A stretch of 64,000 nucleotides of DNA from an uncultured Armatimonadetes bacterium (GTDB lineage: Bacteria; Armatimonadota; UBA5829; DTJY01): positions 2,503,949 through 2,567,948 of the forward strand of contig OY970325.1 in assembly GCA_963717145.1 (NCBI GenBank), in the 5' to 3' direction. Each line of letters starts with the position of its first letter. The stretch's first letter is position 1. The translations under genes were made by a program, and so were the position numbers. The notes beneath the pieces were generated by a model. It did not search any database. It saw nothing but the letters and a program-made list of their open reading frames with translations, and was not told the DNA's origin. This document shows, piece after piece, positions 3,941 through 56,356 of the stretch.

Positions 3941-4936
3941 TTAACCCGCACGTTCCCTCCGAGCTTTTCCGATGGCCTGCTGATGCTCTTCGAATGTGCG
4001 GCTGAATATGTGAGAACCATCCGGCCTGGCGACGTAATACATGTAGTCACGATCGGCAGGACGGAGCGCGGCCTCGACCGAATCGAGGCCGGGACTGGCG
4101 ATCGGTCCCGGCGGCAGTCCGCGGTTGCGATAGGTATTGTATGGCGAATCGACCTCCAGGTCGCGGTATAGCACCCGATCCTTGTGATGGCCGAGCGCAT
4201 AGAGCACCGTCGCATCGACCTCGAGCAGCATGTCCTTGTTCAGCCGGTTATGGATCACCGCCGACACGAGCGGACGGTCCTTCGGGATCCTCGCCTCTCG
4301 TTCCACCAGCGACGCCAGAGTGACGCACTCGCGGAGGCCCATGCCGCTCCTGGCGATCTCGTCTGCCAGAGGATCCGCAATCTTGTCGGCGAACGCGTCG
4401 AGCATCATCTTGATGACAAACTCCTCGGATGCCCCGATCGGCACGAGATAGGTATCGGGAAACAGGTAACCTTCCAGGCTGTCCGGATGTGGAAACGAGG
4501 TGTCGAACGACGCGCCGCCGTACAGGGCGAGTTCGTCGAAGCGGTCAGCGCGTCCGATCTGTTCCGCCTGAAGTCGCTCCCCGATCTGGCGGACGGTGAA
4601 CCCCTCGGGGATCGTGATCCAGCGCGCGGATACGTCGCCTCGTTCGATCTTATTCAGCGCCGCTCTCGGGCCCGCCGCCGGGTCGAGTTCATATGCGCCC
4701 GGCTTGAGTGATCCGCTCTTGCCGCTCAGCCTGGCAAGCATCTGGAACCCGAAGGCACTGCGGACGACGCCTCTCTCGGCGAGAATGCCTCCGATCTGGG
4801 AGGCGGACGAGCCGTTCGGGATCATCACCCTGACTTTGCCACTCGGTCCGGCGGCAAACATCGCATGCGCGACCCACAGGAATGCCAGAACGACGATCCC
4901 GGCTGCTATCAATATACGAACAGACTTACTCTTCAT
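3941..4936 (-). CDS. mltG: Endolytic murein transglycosylase MltG (YceG family)
   Basis: Track ORF; N-terminal TM helix then YceG-like periplasmic domain (…YLFPDTYLVP…, …NTYRNRGLPPGPIASPG…). Confidence 0.8.
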   Translation of the reverse strand: MKSKSVRILIAAGIVVLAFLWVAHAMFAAGPSGKVRVMIPNGSSASQIGGILAERGVVRSAFGFQMLARLSGKSGSLKPGAYELDPAAGPRAALNKIERGDVSARWITIPEGFTVRQIGERLQAEQIGRADRFDELALYGGASFDTSFPHPDSLEGYLFPDTYLVPIGASEEFVIKMMLDAFADKIADPLADEIARSGMGLRECVTLASLVEREARIPKDRPLVSAVIHNRLNKDMLLEVDATVLYALGHHKDRVLYRDLEVDSPYNTYRNRGLPPGPIASPGLDSVEAALRPADRDYMYYVARPDGSHIFSRTFEEHQQAIGKARRERAG

Positions 4937-5369
4937 CGTGCGTTTCTTCGGCGGCCGATTTCTGGCGGTCCATGTAGGACTGCAGGATCACCGCGGCCGC
5001 GTGCATGTCTATGATCTCTTTCCGCTTCTCGCGCCTGTGCCCGGTCTCGATGAGCATGCGCTCGACCTCGGAGGTCGTGAGGCGCTCGTCCCAGGTCTCG
5101 ATCGGGACGCGGATTCGCTTCCGGATCTCTTCGATGAACGCGAGGACCTTCTCGGCCTGGATACCGATCGCCCCTGTTAACATTATCGGCATGCCGACGA
5201 CAATCCGTTCGACCTGGTATTCTTCCACGAGTTCGCGGACCTTGCCGATGTCCTTCCTGACGCTGTCAGTGCGCCTGATGACCGTGACGGGATGCGCGCC
5301 GAATCCAAGCTCATCACTGACCGCGACGCCGATTGTCTTATCCCCAACATCCAGGCCGATCAACCGCAT
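4926..5369 (-). CDS. ruvX: Holliday-junction resolvase-like nuclease RuvX/YqgF
   Basis: Track ORF, 147 aa; MRLIGLDVGDKTIGVAVSD... is the typical YqgF N-terminus. Confidence 0.8.
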   Translation of the reverse strand: MRLIGLDVGDKTIGVAVSDELGFGAHPVTVIRRTDSVRKDIGKVRELVEEYQVERIVVGMPIMLTGAIGIQAEKVLAFIEEIRKRIRVPIETWDERLTTSEVERMLIETGHRREKRKEIIDMHAAAVILQSYMDRQKSAAEETHDEE

Positions 5370-5447
5370 TCTTACCTACCGTTTGCACTGACGAATATCC
5401 ACCGCATGCTTGCCAATGGGATGATCAGTAAGGAGTCGGACACCACT

Positions 5448-5543
5448 GTTCGTACTGGAGTTGTACTCCAGTACGCGCCACTGATCGGGGAGTTCAACTC
5501 CCCCACTCAGTTCGCCGGGCGGGAGTACAACTCCCGCCCGAAC
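5448..5543. repeat. Structured triple-hairpin repeat, family E (GAGTNNNACTC-core hairpins within outer gttcg...cgaac)
   Basis: tactggagttgtactccagta, ggggagttcaactcccc and cgggcgggagtacaactcccgcccg hairpins between ruvX and alaS; same architecture as the element at 38327-38440. Confidence 0.5.
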
Positions 5544-5558
5544 AATGTTTGGTTGCAG

Positions 5559-8206
<2,648 letters not shown>

Positions 8207-8213
<7 letters not shown>

Positions 8214-9145
8214 GCGGACTGCGCCTCCATGAACGCCAGGGTATCCTCGAGGCTTCGGATTCCCGTGGTCGCGCCGATCGCCGTCACACAGAGCGCGCCG
8301 ACCGCGTTGGCGAATCGTCCGGTCTTCTCGAGGTCCCACCCCTTCAGTATCCCGGTCAGGAAGCCGGCGGAGAACGCGTCGCCCGCGCCACACGCATCGA
8401 CCGCCTCGACGTCGTACTTCGGGATGCGAAGCTCCTCGTCGGCTGACCGAATGTAGCATCCCTCTTCGCCCATCTTGAGGCCGACGACCTTCACGCCGCG
8501 CTCCATGAGCACCTTCGCGACATCGGCCGGGTCATGCCTACCCGTAACCATCCGCGCCTCCTCGATGCTCGGAACGGCATAGTCCATATACGGCAGGCAC
8601 GGCGCGAGAAGCTCCATCCAGCGGCCACGGGAGTCCCAGGCGGTGTCGAGCGATGTCGTTATGCCCATTTCCTGCGCGCTCTTGAGCACGCTGGCGGTCG
8701 GCTGACCGTCGAACGACGGCATCAGGAACGTCCCGGCGACATGGAGTATCTTCGCGCCCTTCACGAAATCGAAGTTGACATCGTCCTCGACGAGGGTGGC
8801 ATTCGCGCCGAGGTAATGGATGAAACTGCGCTCACCATCCGAGTGGATCATGACCATCGTGCCGGACGTATTGTTGTCCGGGTCGCGCACGACACCACGC
8901 GCATCCATGCCGTGACCTTTGACCGTCGAGATCACGAAATCGCCGAATCCGTCCTCGCCGACCTTGCCCATGATACCGGTGTCGATGCCGATCTTGGCCA
9001 GATCGACGCCGGTGTTCGTCGCACATCCGCCCGTGTGAAGCTCCATCTGATCGACGAGGACGAGCTTCCCGCGCCCGGGGTACTCGTCAACCGGCTTGCC
9101 GAGAACGTCGGCGACCAGGATGCCAAGACAGACTATATCAGCCAT
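8207..9145 (-). CDS. PfkB-family carbohydrate kinase (ribokinase-like)
   Basis: Track ORF, 312 aa; ...DACGAGDAFSAGF... signature; overlaps alaS start by 7 bp. Confidence 0.75.
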
Positions 9146-37502: not shown

Positions 37503-39557
37503 CTACGCCTTTCGATCGCCAAAGAACCTCTGCACATCGGCCATGTTGACCGTGACGGGGCACTGGGGGAGGAAGCGGATGAACTCCTTGCCATACATCT
37601 TCTTGATCAGCCGCGAGTCGAGGATCGCGACGACTCCCCGGTCGAGCTTCGTGCGGATGAGGCGTCCGAATCCCTGCTTGAGCCTGATCTGCGCCTGGGG
37701 CATCGAGAAATCGCGGAACCAGTCGCCGCCGGATGCCATGATCGCATCGGTGCGCGCCTTGTTGACCGGGCTGTCCGGCACGGCGAACGGGAGCTTGTCG
37801 ATCACCACGATGCTGAGCGCCTCGCCCCGGATATCGACGCCCTCCCAGAAGCTGTGGACGCCGAACAGGCATGCTTGATCCTGCTCCAAGAACGACTGGA
37901 CGAGCGCCTCGTTCGACATGTCGCCCTGCTTCATCATGGTAAACGGCAGCCGCCCGAACAGCCTATCGTAGACGGCATTGAGCATCCGGTATGAGGTGAA
38001 GAGCAGGAACGCCCGCCCGCCGGACGCCCGCACAAGCTGCTCGATCTCCTCGGCGACGGCATCCGTGTACATCGGATTCTCGGACGGGAATTCGAGATGC
38101 CGCGGGATGTAGAGCATGCACTGCGTGGTGAAGTCGAACGGCGAATCCTGCGCGGTCTCGACGCACTCGGGCACTCCGAGCCGGCCCCGGAGGTAGCCGA
38201 ACGTGCCGGAGTTCGTGAGCGTCGCCGAGGTCAGCACGACGCTGTCGATCTCCTTCCAGAGGTTCTGCTTGAGGATATCCGCCACGGAGAGCGGCGAGTA
38301 TCGGAGGAAACACGGGCCACCCGTATCCCCACGCCGTTCGGGAGGGAGTTGGACTCCCTCCCGCGACACTAGGGCTGGGAGTTCAACTCCCGATTGAGTC
38401 CTGCGGGAGGGAGTCCAACTCCCTCCCGAACGGCGTGGGGATGCTCCGCGCTCGCCCCACTTGAAGAAGCCCTTCTCCGTGCCGAAGAAGAGGAGCGTCA
38501 TCTCCTCCTTCAAACGCGCGGTCATCCTGCGCAGGCCCGAGAGCCGGTCCTCGAGTTCGGGCTTGCCGGTTGTATCCTGCTCGGTCAGCTCGCGGTTGAG
38601 CCCATCGAGCATCGAACAGATGACCTTGACTGTCTCCTCGACCTCCGACTTACTGTTTCCGCGACAAACCTCATGCAGGAAGAACTCCTGCTTTGGGTGG
38701 CCGGCGAAGAAGTCGAAGAGCGCGCGGTTCAGTTCGTCGAGTGTCTGTATCCGCTGGGGATCGAGGCCGATGCCCTTGACGCGCTTGATCCGCTTCAGGA
38801 GACTCGGCACGCGGAAGCTCGCACACTCGATGCCGAACGCCTTAGTGGCGATGTCCTCCAGGTGATGGGCCTCATCGAAGATCACGGCATCGTATGCGGG
38901 GAGGACCCCCGCGTTCGGGTCGGACATCCGGATGCCGAGATCGGCGAAAAAGAGCGAATGGTTCGTGATGATGACATTGGCGTCCTGGGCCTCGCGCCGC
39001 ATCTTGTAGTAGAAGCACTTTCCGACGAATCGGCACTGCTGATTGTGGCAGGTATCCTGGTTCGAGCAGATGTCCGACCAGTCGCCGAACTGGAAATCCA
39101 ACTCGCCGACGTCGCCGGTCTCGGTCTCGGCCGCCCACTTCTCGAGCTTCCTGAGGTTCGGGTCGCCGATGAGGTGAAGCTGCCCGGACTCGGCGTCGAA
39201 ACTGTTCATGCAGAGGTAGTTTCCCCGGCCCTTGACCACTACGGCCTTGATCTTCCGCTCGGGGAAGACGCTCTGAAGGAATGGGATGTCCTTGTTGAGA
39301 AGCTGGCTCTGGAGGTAGATGGTATGCGTGGAGACGATGACTTTCTTCCCGGTGAGGCTGAACTCGATCGCCGGGAGCAGGTAGGCCATGCTCTTCCCGA
39401 CGCCGGTGCCGGCCTCCGCGAGGCAGTGGTGCTTCGAGGCGAGCGCGCGCTCGATAGCGAGCGCGACCTCGATCTGCTGAGGCCGGTATTCGTAACCCGG
39501 CATCCGTTCTGCAATCAGTCCACTTGGGCCAAGCGCCCGCTCCAAGTCCATCTTCAA
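37503..39557 (-). CDS. dinG: DinG/Rad3-family ATP-dependent DNA helicase carrying an in-frame repeat-element insertion
   Basis: Track ORF, 684 aa; ...LAEAGTGVGKSMAYLLPAI... (Walker A), ...VIFDEAHHLED... (DEAH box); the low-complexity stretch PRRSGGSWTPSRRTQSGVELPALVSREGVQLPPERRG is encoded by repeat 38327-38440. Confidence 0.8.
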   Translation of the reverse strand: MKMDLERALGPSGLIAERMPGYEYRPQQIEVALAIERALASKHHCLAEAGTGVGKSMAYLLPAIEFSLTGKKVIVSTHTIYLQSQLLNKDIPFLQSVFPERKIKAVVVKGRGNYLCMNSFDAESGQLHLIGDPNLRKLEKWAAETETGDVGELDFQFGDWSDICSNQDTCHNQQCRFVGKCFYYKMRREAQDANVIITNHSLFFADLGIRMSDPNAGVLPAYDAVIFDEAHHLEDIATKAFGIECASFRVPSLLKRIKRVKGIGLDPQRIQTLDELNRALFDFFAGHPKQEFFLHEVCRGNSKSEVEETVKVICSMLDGLNRELTEQDTTGKPELEDRLSGLRRMTARLKEEMTLLFFGTEKGFFKWGERGASPRRSGGSWTPSRRTQSGVELPALVSREGVQLPPERRGDTGGPCFLRYSPLSVADILKQNLWKEIDSVVLTSATLTNSGTFGYLRGRLGVPECVETAQDSPFDFTTQCMLYIPRHLEFPSENPMYTDAVAEEIEQLVRASGGRAFLLFTSYRMLNAVYDRLFGRLPFTMMKQGDMSNEALVQSFLEQDQACLFGVHSFWEGVDIRGEALSIVVIDKLPFAVPDSPVNKARTDAIMASGGDWFRDFSMPQAQIRLKQGFGRLIRTKLDRGVVAILDSRLIKKMYGKEFIRFLPQCPVTVNMADVQRFFGDRKA
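38327..38440. repeat. Family E triple-hairpin element (114 bp) inside the DinG-like helicase ORF, in frame
   Basis: ccccacgccgttcg + gggagggagttggactccctccc + gggagttcaactccc + gggagggagtccaactccctccc + cgaacggcgtgggg; perfect terminal inverted repeats; 114 = 38 codons. Confidence 0.6.
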
Positions 39558-53914: not shown

Positions 53915-54691
53915 GTGACAAACCCGGAGCAGGTTCAATACGAGATCGGCATCGCGCTCGACCCGGATCGGATGCCCGAGCACGTCGCGATCATCATGGA
54001 CGGCAACGGCCGGTGGGCGACCGAGCAGGGACTCCCGCGCATCATGGGCCACCACGAAGGCTACCAGACCGTCCTCAAGATCGTGCGCGCCGCCGACGAC
54101 CTGGGTGTCGGGGCTCTGACCCTCTACACGTTCTCGACCGAGAACTGGCGGCGTCCGAAGGATGAGGTCGAAATGCTGATGGCCCTCATCGAGGATGCCA
54201 CCCGGAACGAACTCCCCATGATGCTGGAGAACAACATCAGGCTGCGAGTCTCCGGCCGGGTATCGGAGCTGCCGGACTCCCTGCAGTCGGCGCTCAACGA
54301 CAATATCGAGCGGACGAAGAGCAACACGGGACTCGTGCTGAACCTGGCGATCAACTACGGCGGACGGGGGGAGATCCTCGATGCGGTCCGGGAGGCGTGC
54401 CGGCGCGTGCGGGCGGGTGAACTCGACCCGGAGACGATCGATGAGACGTACTTCTCCCATCTGCTGTACACTGCGGGGCTGCCCGACCCGGATCTGATGA
54501 TCCGCACGGCCGGCGAGCTTCGGGTAAGCAATTTCCTGCTCTGGCAGATCGCCTACGCCGAGATCTGGGTGACCCCCACCCTATGGCCGGACTTCCGGAA
54601 GGCCGACCTTGTCCACGCGATCGCCGATTTCCAAAAGCGCACCCGCAAGTTCGGATCTGTTTCTTCCTTACCAGGAGGTACACGCCAATGA
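53915..54691 (+). CDS. uppS: Isoprenyl transferase (undecaprenyl diphosphate synthase)
   Basis: Track ORF, 258 aa; ...HVAIIMDGNGRWA... and ...RTAGELRVSNFLLWQIAYAE.... Confidence 0.85.
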   Translation: MTNPEQVQYEIGIALDPDRMPEHVAIIMDGNGRWATEQGLPRIMGHHEGYQTVLKIVRAADDLGVGALTLYTFSTENWRRPKDEVEMLMALIEDATRNELPMMLENNIRLRVSGRVSELPDSLQSALNDNIERTKSNTGLVLNLAINYGGRGEILDAVREACRRVRAGELDPETIDETYFSHLLYTAGLPDPDLMIRTAGELRVSNFLLWQIAYAEIWVTPTLWPDFRKADLVHAIADFQKRTRKFGSVSSLPGGTRQ

Positions 54692-55107
54692 CACGATCCA
54701 AAGGGCTTGCCGTCACAGTTGTCATCATCGCAGCGGCGGCCAACCTTTTCATCCTTGGGGAGATTCTTTCCATCCTGCTCGGTCTGTATCGCGAACGCAC
54801 CGACATGCCCCTCCTGACGCTGGGCATACCGCCCGGCCTGGCAGTAGTCGCAAGCAGCATTCTGGCCTGGCTCATTGCCTCGCTGCAGTTGAGGAAAGCA
54901 TCCGTCGCGCGGCTGGACGCAATCGGTTGGGGCGCGCTTGCGGGACTCATCGCGGCGTTGGCGTCCTCCGTGACACTCGGATGGATCCTCATCACGAATC
55001 TGGGCTCATCAATGGTCGGCTCGGTACTGATAATCCTTGCCGTCGGACTCCTATGCGGGCTGTCGGTGCTTTCCGCTGTGATGTGCCGGTATCGAGGTCG
55101 AGGCTAG
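54688..55107 (+). CDS. Small hydrophobic membrane protein (139 aa, about 4 TM) in the position normally held by cdsA
   Basis: Track ORF 54583..55107 trimmed to MTRSKGLAVTVVIIAAAANLF... (AGGAGGT 8 nt upstream); no CdsA signature seen. Confidence 0.5.
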   Translation: MTRSKGLAVTVVIIAAAANLFILGEILSILLGLYRERTDMPLLTLGIPPGLAVVASSILAWLIASLQLRKASVARLDAIGWGALAGLIAALASSVTLGWILITNLGSSMVGSVLIILAVGLLCGLSVLSAVMCRYRGRG

Positions 55108-55115
55108 ACGTCCCC

Positions 55116-56291
55116 ATGAAAAGCATCTCGATCCTCGGGTCCACCGGCTCCATAGGGACGCAGGTCCTCGACATAGTATCGCGGCTACCGAAGCGGCTGG
55201 AAGTCGTTGGACTGGCGGCACATCGCAACGTCGAGCTTCTCGCAGAGCAGGTTCTTCAATATCAGCCATCGGTCGTCTCCATCGGCACGGAAGAAGACGC
55301 CGGGCGACTGCGTACGGAACTCGAACGTCGAACGTCCAACTTCCAACGTCGAACACTGAACTTGGAGATCGTCTGGGGCTCGGAAGGACTCGCCCGGGTC
55401 GCCACAATGGCTGAGGCGCAAACGGTCGTCGTGTCTGTCGCGGGTGCGATCGGACTCGCGCCGACCATCGCGGCGATCAAGGCCGGGAAAGAGATCGCCC
55501 TCGCGAGCAAAGAGGTCCTGGTAGCGGCCGGAAGCCTCGTGACGAAGCTCGCAGAAGAGCATGGAGTTCGACTGCTCCCGATCGACAGCGAGCATTCCGC
55601 CCTCCTCCAGTGCCTGAATGGCGAAGACCCGAAAACGATCCGGCGGCTGATCCTGACCGCGTCAGGCGGCGCATTCCGAGACTGCCCGGTTGAGTCGCTC
55701 AAAACGGCCACCATCGAGCAGGCACTGGCGCATCCAAACTGGACCATGGGCCGGAAGATCACCATCGACTCCGCCACGCTGATGAACAAGTGCCTGGAGA
55801 TCATCGAAGCGCACTGGCTCTTCGGGGTCGAGCCGCAAAAAATCGAGGTTGTTATTCATCCCCAGAGTATAGTACACTCTATGGTAGAGTTCGACGACGG
55901 TTCGACAATCGCGCAGTTGGGAGTGCCCGACATGCGCCTGCCGATCCAGTACGCACTCCTCTATCCTGAGCGGCCGGCAACCGGACTCCCGAGGCTCGAA
56001 ATCACACAGGTCGGGCGTCTCGATTTCCGCGAGCCGGACCTCGAACGCTATCCGGCGCTGAGCCTGGCGTACGAGGCACTCGGCCGGGGCGGGACGATGC
56101 CTGCGGTGATGAATGCGGCAAACGAGAACGCAGTCGGCTTGTTTCTCGATGGAAGGATAGATTTTCTCGACATTTGCGGTATAACGAAGAAAGTCATGAA
56201 GAACCACTCGCCCCTCACGGATCCGAACCTCGAGCAAATCCTCGAGGCGGACACCTGGGGGCGCAGACAGGCTCTGGACTTTCGACTTTAG
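55116..56291 (+). CDS. dxr: 1-deoxy-D-xylulose 5-phosphate reductoisomerase
   Basis: Track ORF 54609..56291 trimmed to MKSISILGSTGSIGTQVLD...; ...LLPIDSEHSA...; contains a short repeat-derived insertion at about 55315-55365. Confidence 0.9.
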   Translation: MKSISILGSTGSIGTQVLDIVSRLPKRLEVVGLAAHRNVELLAEQVLQYQPSVVSIGTEEDAGRLRTELERRTSNFQRRTLNLEIVWGSEGLARVATMAEAQTVVVSVAGAIGLAPTIAAIKAGKEIALASKEVLVAAGSLVTKLAEEHGVRLLPIDSEHSALLQCLNGEDPKTIRRLILTASGGAFRDCPVESLKTATIEQALAHPNWTMGRKITIDSATLMNKCLEIIEAHWLFGVEPQKIEVVIHPQSIVHSMVEFDDGSTIAQLGVPDMRLPIQYALLYPERPATGLPRLEITQVGRLDFREPDLERYPALSLAYEALGRGGTMPAVMNAANENAVGLFLDGRIDFLDICGITKKVMKNHSPLTDPNLEQILEADTWGRRQALDFRL

Positions 56292-56356
56292 ACGTTGGGG
56301 ATGGAGTTGGACTCTATCCCCAACGGCGGACTTTTGACTCGTAGTGGAGGAAGATA

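What the first reader, a model, noticed from the sequence alone, without database searches (positions are those of the whole stretch)
38327..38440. 114-bp triple-hairpin repeat element inserted in-frame within the DinG-like helicase gene
The element has perfect 14-bp terminal inverted repeats (ccccacgccgttcg / cgaacggcgtgggg) enclosing three hairpins (gggagggagttggactccctccc, gggagttcaactccc, gggagggagtccaactccctccc). It is exactly 38 codons and is translated as PRRSGGSWTPSRRTQSGVELPALVSREGVQLPPERRG inside an otherwise conserved helicase. A related element lies intergenically at 5448-5543. In-frame palindromic insertions in coding genes are known for Rickettsia palindromic elements; this would be an analogous case in a GC-rich genome.
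Basis: seen in the sequence. Interest (0 to 1): 0.65.

Follow-up and report, generated by a model that had tools for sequence, protein, structure and literature searches.

The report
Palindromic REP repeat inside a helicase gene
A roughly 100-base selfish palindromic repeat, of the REP type that RayT transposases are thought to spread, sits in frame inside an Armatimonadota DinG-like DNA helicase gene and adds a floppy loop of about 37 residues; this kind of event is already documented in other bacteria.

Summary
Window 38327-38440 is a three-hairpin palindromic element, in frame in a 682-684 aa DinG-family helicase gene (37503-39557, minus strand). None of 120 Armatimonadota orthologues has it: their loop here is 8 aa in 105 of 119, against 45 aa in the window. 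Comparison with related copies from metagenomes redefines the boundaries. The dispersed unit is 95-96 nt (window 38336-38431), ends YGTTCG...CGAACR, and has no target-site duplication. Each hairpin carries the core GGAGT-N3-ACTCC. Compensatory changes support three local hairpins, not one long one. The same core flanks seven REP-associated tyrosine transposase (RayT) genes from several phyla, four of them picked without seeing their flanks. The element is therefore a REP cluster (REPIN/BIME-like), probably moved in trans by a RayT outside the window. The AlphaFold2 model places the insert at a beta-hairpin tip as the only low-confidence segment. In-frame REPs in DNA-repair genes are already described (PMC3733652), so this is a new member of a known kind. 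Interest is moderate to low.

The parts
38336..38431 (.). Core dispersed unit: a triple-REP element of 96 nt (32 codon-equivalents) with ends GTTCG...CGAAC.
   Evidence: Conservation across 10 copies starts and ends exactly here (alignment A2). Eleven full copies are 89-96 nt long, ten of them 95-96 nt, and have unrelated flanks and no TSD.
38339..38363 (.). Hairpin 1: CGGGAGGGAGT-TGG-ACTCCCTCCCG (REP unit).
   Evidence: Perfect 11-bp stem (I5). Five of its pairs show compensatory double changes across copies.
38377..38391 (.). Hairpin 2, the central REP unit: GGGAGTTCAACTCCC, a 15-nt palindrome.
   Evidence: Its paired positions are invariant in all 10 aligned copies; only the centre base varies between C and G.
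38404..38428 (.). Hairpin 3: CGGGAGGGAGT-CCA-ACTCCCTCCCG (REP unit, inverted relative to hairpin 1).
   Evidence: Perfect 11-bp stem (I6). Three pairs show compensatory double changes across copies.
38325..38335 (.). Left flank ATCCCCACGCC, the perfect inverse complement of the right flank. It is specific to this copy and not part of the family consensus.
   Evidence: The flank inverted repeat is 11 nt here against 0-2 nt in 10 other copies. On the coding strand this side reads GGCGTGGGGAT and is homologous to GCGTGGGGAC in the nearest relative L082 (local alignment p=0.003).
38432..38442 (.). Right flank GGCGTGGGGAT. On the coding strand it reads ATCCCCACGCC and resembles TCCTCACGG/C in relatives L082 and L077.
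   Evidence: Codon-level comparison. The L082 loop DNA is itself a roughly 52-nt palindrome (-24.4 kcal/mol, z -3.6).
37503..39551 (-). Host gene: DinG/XPD-family helicase, 682 aa from the ATG (684 aa from the upstream TTG at 39557). The insert is residues about 372-409.
   Evidence: Pfam; PDB DinG 6fwr; 120 Armatimonadota orthologues with conserved synteny; AF2 model pLDDT 88.9.
5448..5543 (.). Second full copy (96 nt), intergenic, which folds as three hairpins closed by the GTTCG/CGAAC stem.
   Evidence: An orthologous copy sits at the same site in L091, a relative with 86-89% nt identity.
5432..5444 (.). Degenerate REP core GGAGTCGGACACC next to copy B.
   Evidence: One-mismatch motif hit. 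Similar extra units flank copies in L085, L089, L091, L094 and L098.
56293..56326 (.). Solo REP hairpin GTTGGGGATGGAGT-TGG-ACTCTATCCCCAAC, beginning 2 nt after the stop codon of ORF 54609..56291.
   Evidence: DNA fold -16 kcal/mol, z -8.5.

Best explanation
The segment is a non-autonomous palindromic repeat of the REP type. It is a composite of three REP hairpins, comparable to a REPIN or BIME, and each hairpin carries the core GGAGT-N3-ACTCC. The dispersed unit is about 96 nt (YGTTCG...CGAACR) and leaves no target-site duplication. It was most likely moved as single-stranded hairpin DNA by a REP-associated tyrosine (HUH/Y1) transposase, RayT, encoded elsewhere in the genome. This step is inferred. 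It landed in the DNA coding for the turn of a beta-hairpin of a DinG-family helicase, at the apex of a short palindrome that already existed there. The copy survived for three reasons: the added length keeps the frame, the frame used is one of only two of six without stop codons, and the extra Arg/Ser/Gly/Pro-rich residues form a disordered surface loop that leaves the helicase fold intact. Shown here: presence, boundaries, hairpin covariation, absence from orthologues, loop location, and the REP-RayT association in other genomes. Inferred: RayT mobilisation in this genome, apex targeting, and neutrality for helicase function.
For: The element is absent from orthologues: the loop is 8 aa in 105 of 119, and 45 aa in the window. 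The nearest relative, L082 (90-92% nt identity), lacks the hairpins. It belongs to a family: 17 metagenome loci were found, and 10 aligned copies of the same subfamily share the ends GTTCG/CGAAC with unrelated flanks. No TSD was found in 11 copies. The three local hairpins are 99.4% paired, with 8 pairs carrying double compensatory changes and a covariation score of 0.223 against 0.052 in shuffles (0 of 500 shuffles as high). The single long-hairpin alternative scores no better than shuffles. RayT link: phmmer with E. coli RayT found ORFs next to the hairpins in L055, L028 and L039, all above the NCBIfam NF047646 cut-off. The AF2 model (pLDDT 88.9, pTM 0.88) has one low-confidence stretch, residues 372-410, between strands 362-368 and 414-420. 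The gene is intact: dN/dS is 0.08 against L082, and all residues invariant across orthologues are kept. Other in-frame copies of the superfamily lie in a PBP2, a Wzy_C protein and a DUF2961 protein. Precedent exists in PMC3733652.
Against: No RayT gene lies in the 64-kb window or in the subfamily's metagenome contigs, so the cognate enzyme for this genome is unproven. The window copies lack the GTAG tag that E. coli RayT cleaves; they have YGTTSG at that position. Only three members lie in 64 kb, and the genome-wide copy number is unknown. Transposition of REPs by RayT has not been shown in vivo for any system, to my knowledge. The empty site is not clean: relative to L082, 105 nt replace 24 nt, so the insertion was accompanied or followed by other rearrangements.
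Confidence: 0.75

Rival explanations
1. Same element, different history. The triple REP entered the helicase loop in the common ancestor of the window lineage and its nearest relatives. It was kept intact here by selection or palindrome homogenisation, and was largely deleted in the relatives, whose 15-18 aa loops are scars.
For: The nearest relatives have expanded loops of 15, 16 and 18 aa against the usual 8. Those loops are encoded by palindromic DNA. L082 shares both flanks of the window copy. The intergenic copy B has persisted at an orthologous site in a relative with 86-89% identity and is about 92% conserved, so long persistence is possible.
Against: The internal parts of the L082, L077 and L079 loops are not significantly similar to the element (p = 0.15, 0.55, 0.94). 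With dS of 0.44 between the window and L082, two 40-nt arms with zero mismatches are unexpected for an old copy unless it is actively homogenised. The old copy B has non-identical arms.
Confidence: 0.25
2. It is a classical MITE: a deletion derivative of a DDE-transposase insertion sequence, defined by terminal inverted repeats and moved by cut-and-paste with a target-site duplication.
For: The helicase copy is about 100 nt, is interspersed, and has apparent perfect 14-40 nt terminal inverted repeats.
Against: No target-site duplication occurs in any of 11 copies. Conserved termini are only 5-6 nt, and the long inverted repeat is peculiar to this one copy. Covariation supports internal local hairpins. 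The motif flanks Y1/HUH RayT genes, not DDE transposases.
Confidence: 0.05
3. The insert has been co-opted. Either the long RNA duplex within the mRNA down-regulates the helicase (an RNase III-type target or ribosome obstacle), or the Arg-rich loop gives the helicase a new interaction surface.
For: The predicted RNA duplex is -107.9 kcal/mol with 40 perfect pairs. The peptide has 7 Arg in 37 residues and lies just before the C-terminal helicase domain. PMC3733652 notes an excess of intragenic REPs in replication and repair genes.
Against: The insert is found in no other orthologue. No similar peptide exists in 5.8 billion proteins. The segment is predicted to be disordered. Other in-frame copies sit in unrelated proteins, which fits neutral tolerance better.
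Confidence: 0.1
4. It is a native lineage-specific linker, or an assembly artefact, rather than a mobile repeat.
For: The loop is hypervariable in the nearest clade.
Against: Other copies share 75-85% nt identity over the whole unit, at unrelated loci and in independent data sets. The flanks run in frame into conserved helicase sequence.
Confidence: 0.02

Closest known systems
REP / REPIN / BIME elements with REP-associated tyrosine transposases (RayT/RAYT)
   Same: The units are short GC-rich hairpins, often in inverted pairs or clusters, and mostly intergenic, often just downstream of stop codons (solo copy at 56293). They have no target-site duplication, and orthologous copies persist (L091). 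RayT genes are flanked on both sides by the same hairpins in seven genomes. In-frame intragenic copies, many in DNA-repair genes, are already reported (PMC3733652).
   Different: The unit is a fixed three-hairpin composite closed by GTTCG/CGAAC, not a two-REP REPIN. The window copies lack the GTAG or CGTC tag. The core GGAGT-N3-ACTCC is shared across several phyla, whereas described REP families are mostly specific to a lineage. The cognate RayT of this genome has not been seen.
Rickettsia palindromic elements (RPE)
   Same: These are palindromic repeats of about 100-150 nt found in frame inside conserved protein genes, where they add surface peptide segments. Some RPEs are classed with CGTC-tagged REPs in PMC3733652.
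   Different: The lineage is unrelated (Armatimonadota, 60% GC). No sequence relationship was tested or is expected. RPEs have no known dedicated transposase, whereas this motif class is linked to RayT genes.
Bacterial MITEs (for example Correia, ERIC, Nezha)
   Same: Small, non-autonomous and interspersed; they can occur within genes and fold into stable hairpins.
   Different: Classical MITEs have IS-derived terminal inverted repeats and target-site duplications. Neither is present here.

Membership tests
REP/REPIN-RayT system | Repeat unit is a short (20-40 nt) imperfect palindrome able to form a stem-loop. | tested here: met
   Three stem-loops of 15-25 nt. Across 10 copies, 99.4% of pair cells form standard pairs, with compensatory changes.
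REP/REPIN-RayT system | Many interspersed copies, mostly extragenic, often as inverted dimers or clusters. | tested here: inconclusive
   Three members lie in the 64-kb window. Eight related contigs carry copies, several with extra units. Most superfamily copies are intergenic. The genome-wide count for the source organism is not available.
REP/REPIN-RayT system | A RayT (Y1/HUH) gene flanked by the same REP sequences. | tested here: inconclusive
   Met for the motif class in seven RayT loci from other organisms: L055, L028, L039, L101, L103, L105 and L107. Not found in the window or in the subfamily's contigs.
REP/REPIN-RayT system | Conserved GTAG (or CGTC) tetranucleotide at the foot of the hairpin. 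| tested here: not met
   Window copies have YGTTCG or GTTGG instead. GTAG is present in the Planctomycetaceae and Hymenobacter members and in the first unit upstream of the L055 RayT.
REP/REPIN-RayT system | No target-site duplication (single-strand HUH chemistry). | tested here: met
   TSD length is 0 in 11 of 11 full copies.
REP/REPIN-RayT system | RayT binds and cleaves the single-stranded REP. | not testable with these tools
   This needs biochemistry. It has been shown only for E. coli RayT, as cited in PMC3733652.
Rickettsia palindromic elements | Membership of the RPE-1 to RPE-n sequence families of Rickettsia. | not tested
   No RPE sequences were compared. The host phylum and base composition differ, so the resemblance is functional only.
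Rickettsia palindromic elements | In-frame insertion into conserved genes, adding a surface segment. | tested here: met
TIR-type MITE | Terminal inverted repeats shared by all copies, plus a flanking target-site duplication. | tested here: not met
   Shared termini are only 5-6 nt, and no TSD is present.
DinG/XPD helicase (host gene) | Helicase motifs in both RecA-like domains, the four FeS cysteines, and the fold. | tested here: met
   Pfam. All 94 columns invariant across 120 sequences are kept, including GTGVGK, DE(A)H and C114/C168/C173/C179. PDB DinG E 2.5e-50. AF2 pTM 0.88.

The most novel reading that the evidence does not exclude
GGAGT-N3-ACTCC hairpins may define one REP class spanning several phyla, co-distributed with a single large RayT clade (more than 2000 members). 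Its preferred mobile form would be a three-hairpin, cloverleaf-like unit that inserts at the single-stranded tips of pre-existing palindromes, including inside genes. That would make it a recurrent generator of new disordered protein loops, and a tractable cognate REP-RayT pair for testing how REPs move.
Probability: 0.3. Interest if true: 0.55.

Novelty: new member of a known kind. Interest (0 to 1): 0.38.

Why it matters
This is a clean case, resolved to exact boundaries, of a selfish palindromic repeat lengthening a protein loop in a little-studied phylum. It shows how a conserved DNA-repair helicase tolerates about 37 extra residues at a beta-hairpin tip. The more useful by-product is the link between one hairpin core (GGAGT-N3-ACTCC) and one RayT clade, seen in contigs attributed to Bacteroidota, Ignavibacteriota and Candidatus Altimarinota; the same hairpin core, without a RayT gene in view, also occurs in Armatimonadota (this window), Planctomycetota, Chloroflexota and Omnitrophota. 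REP mobilisation by RayT is still unproven in vivo, and a widespread cognate pair with a fixed core and covarying lower stems would be a good substrate for biochemical tests. For annotation, such inserts should not be mistaken for frameshifts, pseudogenes or novel domains.

Tried and rejected
Rfam gave nothing at gathering thresholds. The permissive scan gave only miRNA-precursor and sRNA models far below their cut-offs, which reflects the long hairpin and nothing more.

Exact-protein look-ups of the window helicase, from either start codon, found no record, so the source genome could not be identified.

The idea that the loops of relatives are decayed copies of the element was tested by shuffling and was not significant. 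It is kept only as a lower-probability history.

A tRNA-like or T-arm origin was considered and dropped: the loops are 3 nt, not 7, and the only tRNA-type hit in the permissive Rfam scan was tRNA-Sec at 15.9 bits against a cut-off of 47.

An intein or intron was rejected on size and palindromic DNA, together with the lack of an Rfam match.

A literature search for the hairpin sequences returned only unrelated primers.

The first pattern for flank analysis was mis-specified and printed nothing; it was corrected in the next call.

No Armatimonadota RayT was recognisable among the 120 best RayT hits listed.
Full report
OBSERVATION. The inverted repeat is longer than reported: arms 38325-38364 and 38403-38442 are 40 nt and 100% complementary, and they enclose a central 15-nt palindrome, GGGAGTTCAACTCCC. 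All three hairpins share the core GGAGTNNNACTCC. That motif occurs six times in the window against 0.06 expected from shuffles, and the other three occurrences form the second element at 5448-5543. The segment folds far better than shuffled controls, at z -13.5 as RNA and z -14.9 as DNA. Rfam has no family for it.

HOST GENE. The element lies in ORF 37503..39557 on the minus strand; the likely true start is the ATG at 39551, giving 682 aa. The protein matches Pfam Helicase_C_2, DEAD_2 and DEAD and E. coli DinG (6fwr, E 2.5e-50). Its 120 best relatives are Armatimonadota 'ATP-dependent DNA helicase/DinG' proteins of about 641-660 aa. The gene order zf-HC2 anti-sigma factor, helicase, URO-D is conserved.

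IS IT AN INSERT? Yes. The extra residues are absent from all 20 orthologues in alignment A1.
- In the 120-sequence alignment, the loop between KWGER and CFLRYSP is 8 aa in 105 of 119 orthologues and 4-10 aa in 117.
- It is 15-16 aa in P0001 and P0002, and 45 aa in the window.
- The nearest relative found, L082 (encoding P0041, 90-92% nt identity), has an 18-aa loop and no GGAGT hairpins.
- The gene is otherwise intact. All columns invariant across the family are kept, including Walker A, the DEAH box and the four FeS cysteines. dN/dS against L082 is 0.08, with dS 0.44.
- Only two of the six frame and orientation combinations through the 114 nt lack stop codons, and the gene uses one of them.

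WHERE IN THE PROTEIN? An AlphaFold2 model built from the 120-sequence alignment has mean pLDDT 88.9 and pTM 0.88. Its only low-confidence stretch is residues 372-410, which is the insert. It lies between strands 362-368 and 414-420, at the tip of a beta-hairpin that follows the long helices (299-356) and precedes the C-terminal helicase domain. The peptide is rich in Arg, Ser, Gly and Pro.

WHAT IS THE ELEMENT? A scan of species-representative genomes for three spaced GGAGTNNNACTCC units returned 75 loci. These include dozens of four-hairpin elements in Rufibacter. Non-tandem three-hairpin elements came from contigs labelled Chloroflexi, Omnitrophota, Altimarinota and Ignavibacteriota; the Planctomycetaceae loci carry three same-orientation GTAG-tagged units, a more tandem-like arrangement.

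A narrower metagenome scan returned 17 loci. Eight of them (L085, L087, L089, L091, L092, L094, L098, L099) belong to the same subfamily as the two window copies.

The alignment of these 10 copies shows that conservation starts at GTTCG (window 38336) and ends at CGAAC (38431). The flanks are unrelated apart from Y at -1 and R at +1. Across 11 full copies (these ten plus L047 from a Chloroflexi genome) the unit is 95-96 nt, or 89 nt in L047. None has a target-site duplication. The flank inverted repeat is 0-2 nt everywhere except the helicase copy, where it is 11 nt.

STRUCTURE. With three local hairpins plus the GTT/AAC closing stem, 99.4% of pair cells form standard pairs. Eight pairs carry changes on both sides, and the covariation score is 0.223 against 0.052 in shuffles (0 of 500 shuffles as high). 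Versions with the 3' partner slid by 1-3 columns are only about 41-53% paired.

The alternative, in which arm 1 pairs with arm 3 in a single long hairpin, scores no better than shuffles. The variable positions are mainly a dinucleotide in the lower stems: GGG-NN-GGAGT...ACTCC-N'N'-CCC. Copy B folds as a cloverleaf-like four-way junction. The perfect 40-nt arms of the helicase copy arise because its hairpins 1 and 3 happen to carry the same dinucleotide.

WHO MOVES IT? I searched every ORF of every fetched locus with E. coli RayT and found four homologues.
- Three lie directly beside the triple hairpins: L055 (Emticicia; three units upstream, two downstream), L039 (Altimarinota; three upstream, two downstream) and L028 (Ignavibacteriota; three units 20-86 nt downstream).
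- All three carry HUH and Tyr motifs and score above the NCBIfam NF047646 'REP-associated tyrosine transposase' cut-off.
- The fourth, L019 (Rufibacter), is flanked by a different REP with a GTAG tag and scores just below the NCBIfam cut-off (75.5 against 80 bits), so that genome has at least two REP families.
- A profile of the L028 and L039 proteins finds 2082 relatives, many of them named RayT by their source.
All four (L101, L103, L105, L107) are flanked on both sides by GGAGTNNNACTCC hairpins, the nearest 10-83 nt from the gene. By my own estimate, not a tool result, such a 10-specified-base motif would be expected by chance about 4e-4 times per 400 nt.

I conclude that GGAGT-N3-ACTCC hairpins are the REPs of a RayT clade, and that the window element is a three-REP composite of that class. 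No RayT lies in the window or on the subfamily's contigs. Mobilisation in this genome is therefore inferred, not shown.

THE INSERTION SITE. Compared with L082, the window has 105 nt where L082 has 24 nt, and both flanks are shared (GGAGC(A/G)(T/C)CC on one side, CGTGGGGA(Y)ACG on the other). The L082 loop DNA is itself a palindrome of about 52 nt (-24.4 kcal/mol, z -3.6). By my own comparison of the sequences printed (no tool scored this), L077 and L082 also share a small hairpin, GCSCGTG-TCCT-CACGSGC, which differs between them by a compensatory G/C swap.

The triple REP thus sits at the apex of a palindrome whose arms pre-exist in a relative, within a loop-coding segment that has repeatedly gained and lost palindromic DNA. 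This fits insertion into single-stranded DNA at a hairpin tip, followed by perfection of the stem; both steps are inferred.

The alternative is an ancestral insertion deleted in the relatives, and it is not excluded. However, the internal parts of the relatives' loops are not significantly similar to the element (p 0.15-0.94). Forty perfect pairs are also hard to reconcile with a dS of 0.44, unless the arms are actively homogenised.

By contrast, copy B is old. L091 is orthologous to window 4538-9052 at 86-89% identity and carries the element at the same site. There the element is about 92% identical, while the neighbouring intergenic DNA barely aligns. That matches the reported long persistence of REPINs (abstracts listed).

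IS IN-FRAME INSERTION UNUSUAL FOR THIS CLASS? Most copies are intergenic. At least three others are in frame in real genes:
- a PBP2, between the dimerisation and transpeptidase domains (L014, Planctomycetaceae);
- a Wzy_C-type membrane protein (L024);
- a DUF2961 protein (L094, same subfamily as the window).

COMPARISON WITH THE LITERATURE. Di Nocera et al. 2013 (PMC3733652) surveyed GTAG- and CGTC-tagged REPs. They report REPs entirely within ORFs in several species. [quoted passage not shown] Many lie in replication and repair genes, including UvrABC, UvrD/Rep helicase, Pol I and RecBCD. Some RPEs are counted as such REPs, and RayT genes are flanked by REPs.

The present case fits that picture. 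It differs in phylum, in the fixed three-hairpin unit, in the foot sequence (GTTCG instead of GTAG or CGTC), and in a core shared across several phyla. No paper in the held library prints this core sequence.

VERDICT. Novelty is 'new member of a known kind', and interest is moderate to low. The most interesting open thread is the REP core and RayT clade pairing seen across several phyla, together with possible targeting of palindrome tips.

Noticed in passing
window 56293-56326: Solo REP hairpin of the same class (GTTGGGGATGGAGT-TGG-ACTCTATCCCCAAC, with one stem mismatch). It begins 2 nt after the stop codon of ORF 54609..56291, a typical REP position.
   Followed up: partly
window 4538-9052 and L091 (Ga0315273_10071497): L091 is an orthologous stretch from a relative (86-89% nt identity) and carries copy B at the same intergenic site. 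The element is about 92% identical, while the adjacent intergenic DNA hardly aligns. L091 also has a duplicated right end (CCCGCCCGAACAAC twice).
   Followed up: partly
L082 5497-5560; L077 and L079 helicase loops: The loop-coding DNA of the nearest relatives is itself palindromic. L082 has a roughly 52-nt hairpin (z -3.6). L077 and L082 share GCSCGTG-TCCT-CACGSGC with a compensatory G/C swap. This suggests the loop is a hot spot for palindrome-driven indels.
   Followed up: partly
L082 5718-5967: The helicase ORF of the nearest relative departs from the orthologues after residue ~440 (...GVPECV), and the rest of the contig is unrelated, more AT-rich DNA. This could be a chimeric assembly or an insertion in that strain.
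   Followed up: no
L014 4966-5043; L024 4729-4802; L094 2518-2612: Other members of the hairpin class are in frame in real genes: a PBP2 between PBP_dimer and Transpeptidase, a Wzy_C O-antigen-ligase-like protein, and a DUF2961 protein that also has an extra solo hairpin.
   Followed up: yes
L001-L075 (Rufibacter sp. XAAS-G3-1 and R. ruber loci): Rufibacter carries dozens of four-hairpin elements that start GCTGTTCGGGAGTTCTACTCCCGAAC, with the same core and the same GTTCG/CGAAC foot as the window element.
   Followed up: partly
L019 4756-5349: A RayT homologue in Rufibacter is flanked by a different REP (GTAGGGGCGTATCGCATACGCCC), so this genome hosts at least two REP families.
   Followed up: partly
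window 5432-5444: A degenerate extra REP core (GGAGTCGGACACC) lies just upstream of copy B. Similar extra units or duplicated ends accompany copies in L085, L089, L091, L094 and L098, giving BIME-like mosaics.
   Followed up: no
L009, L022, L040, L054, L062, L074: Several genome hits of the broad pattern are plain tandem repeats (period about 28-36 nt) that happen to contain the core. They may be unrelated to the REP class and were left out of the family analysis.
   Followed up: no
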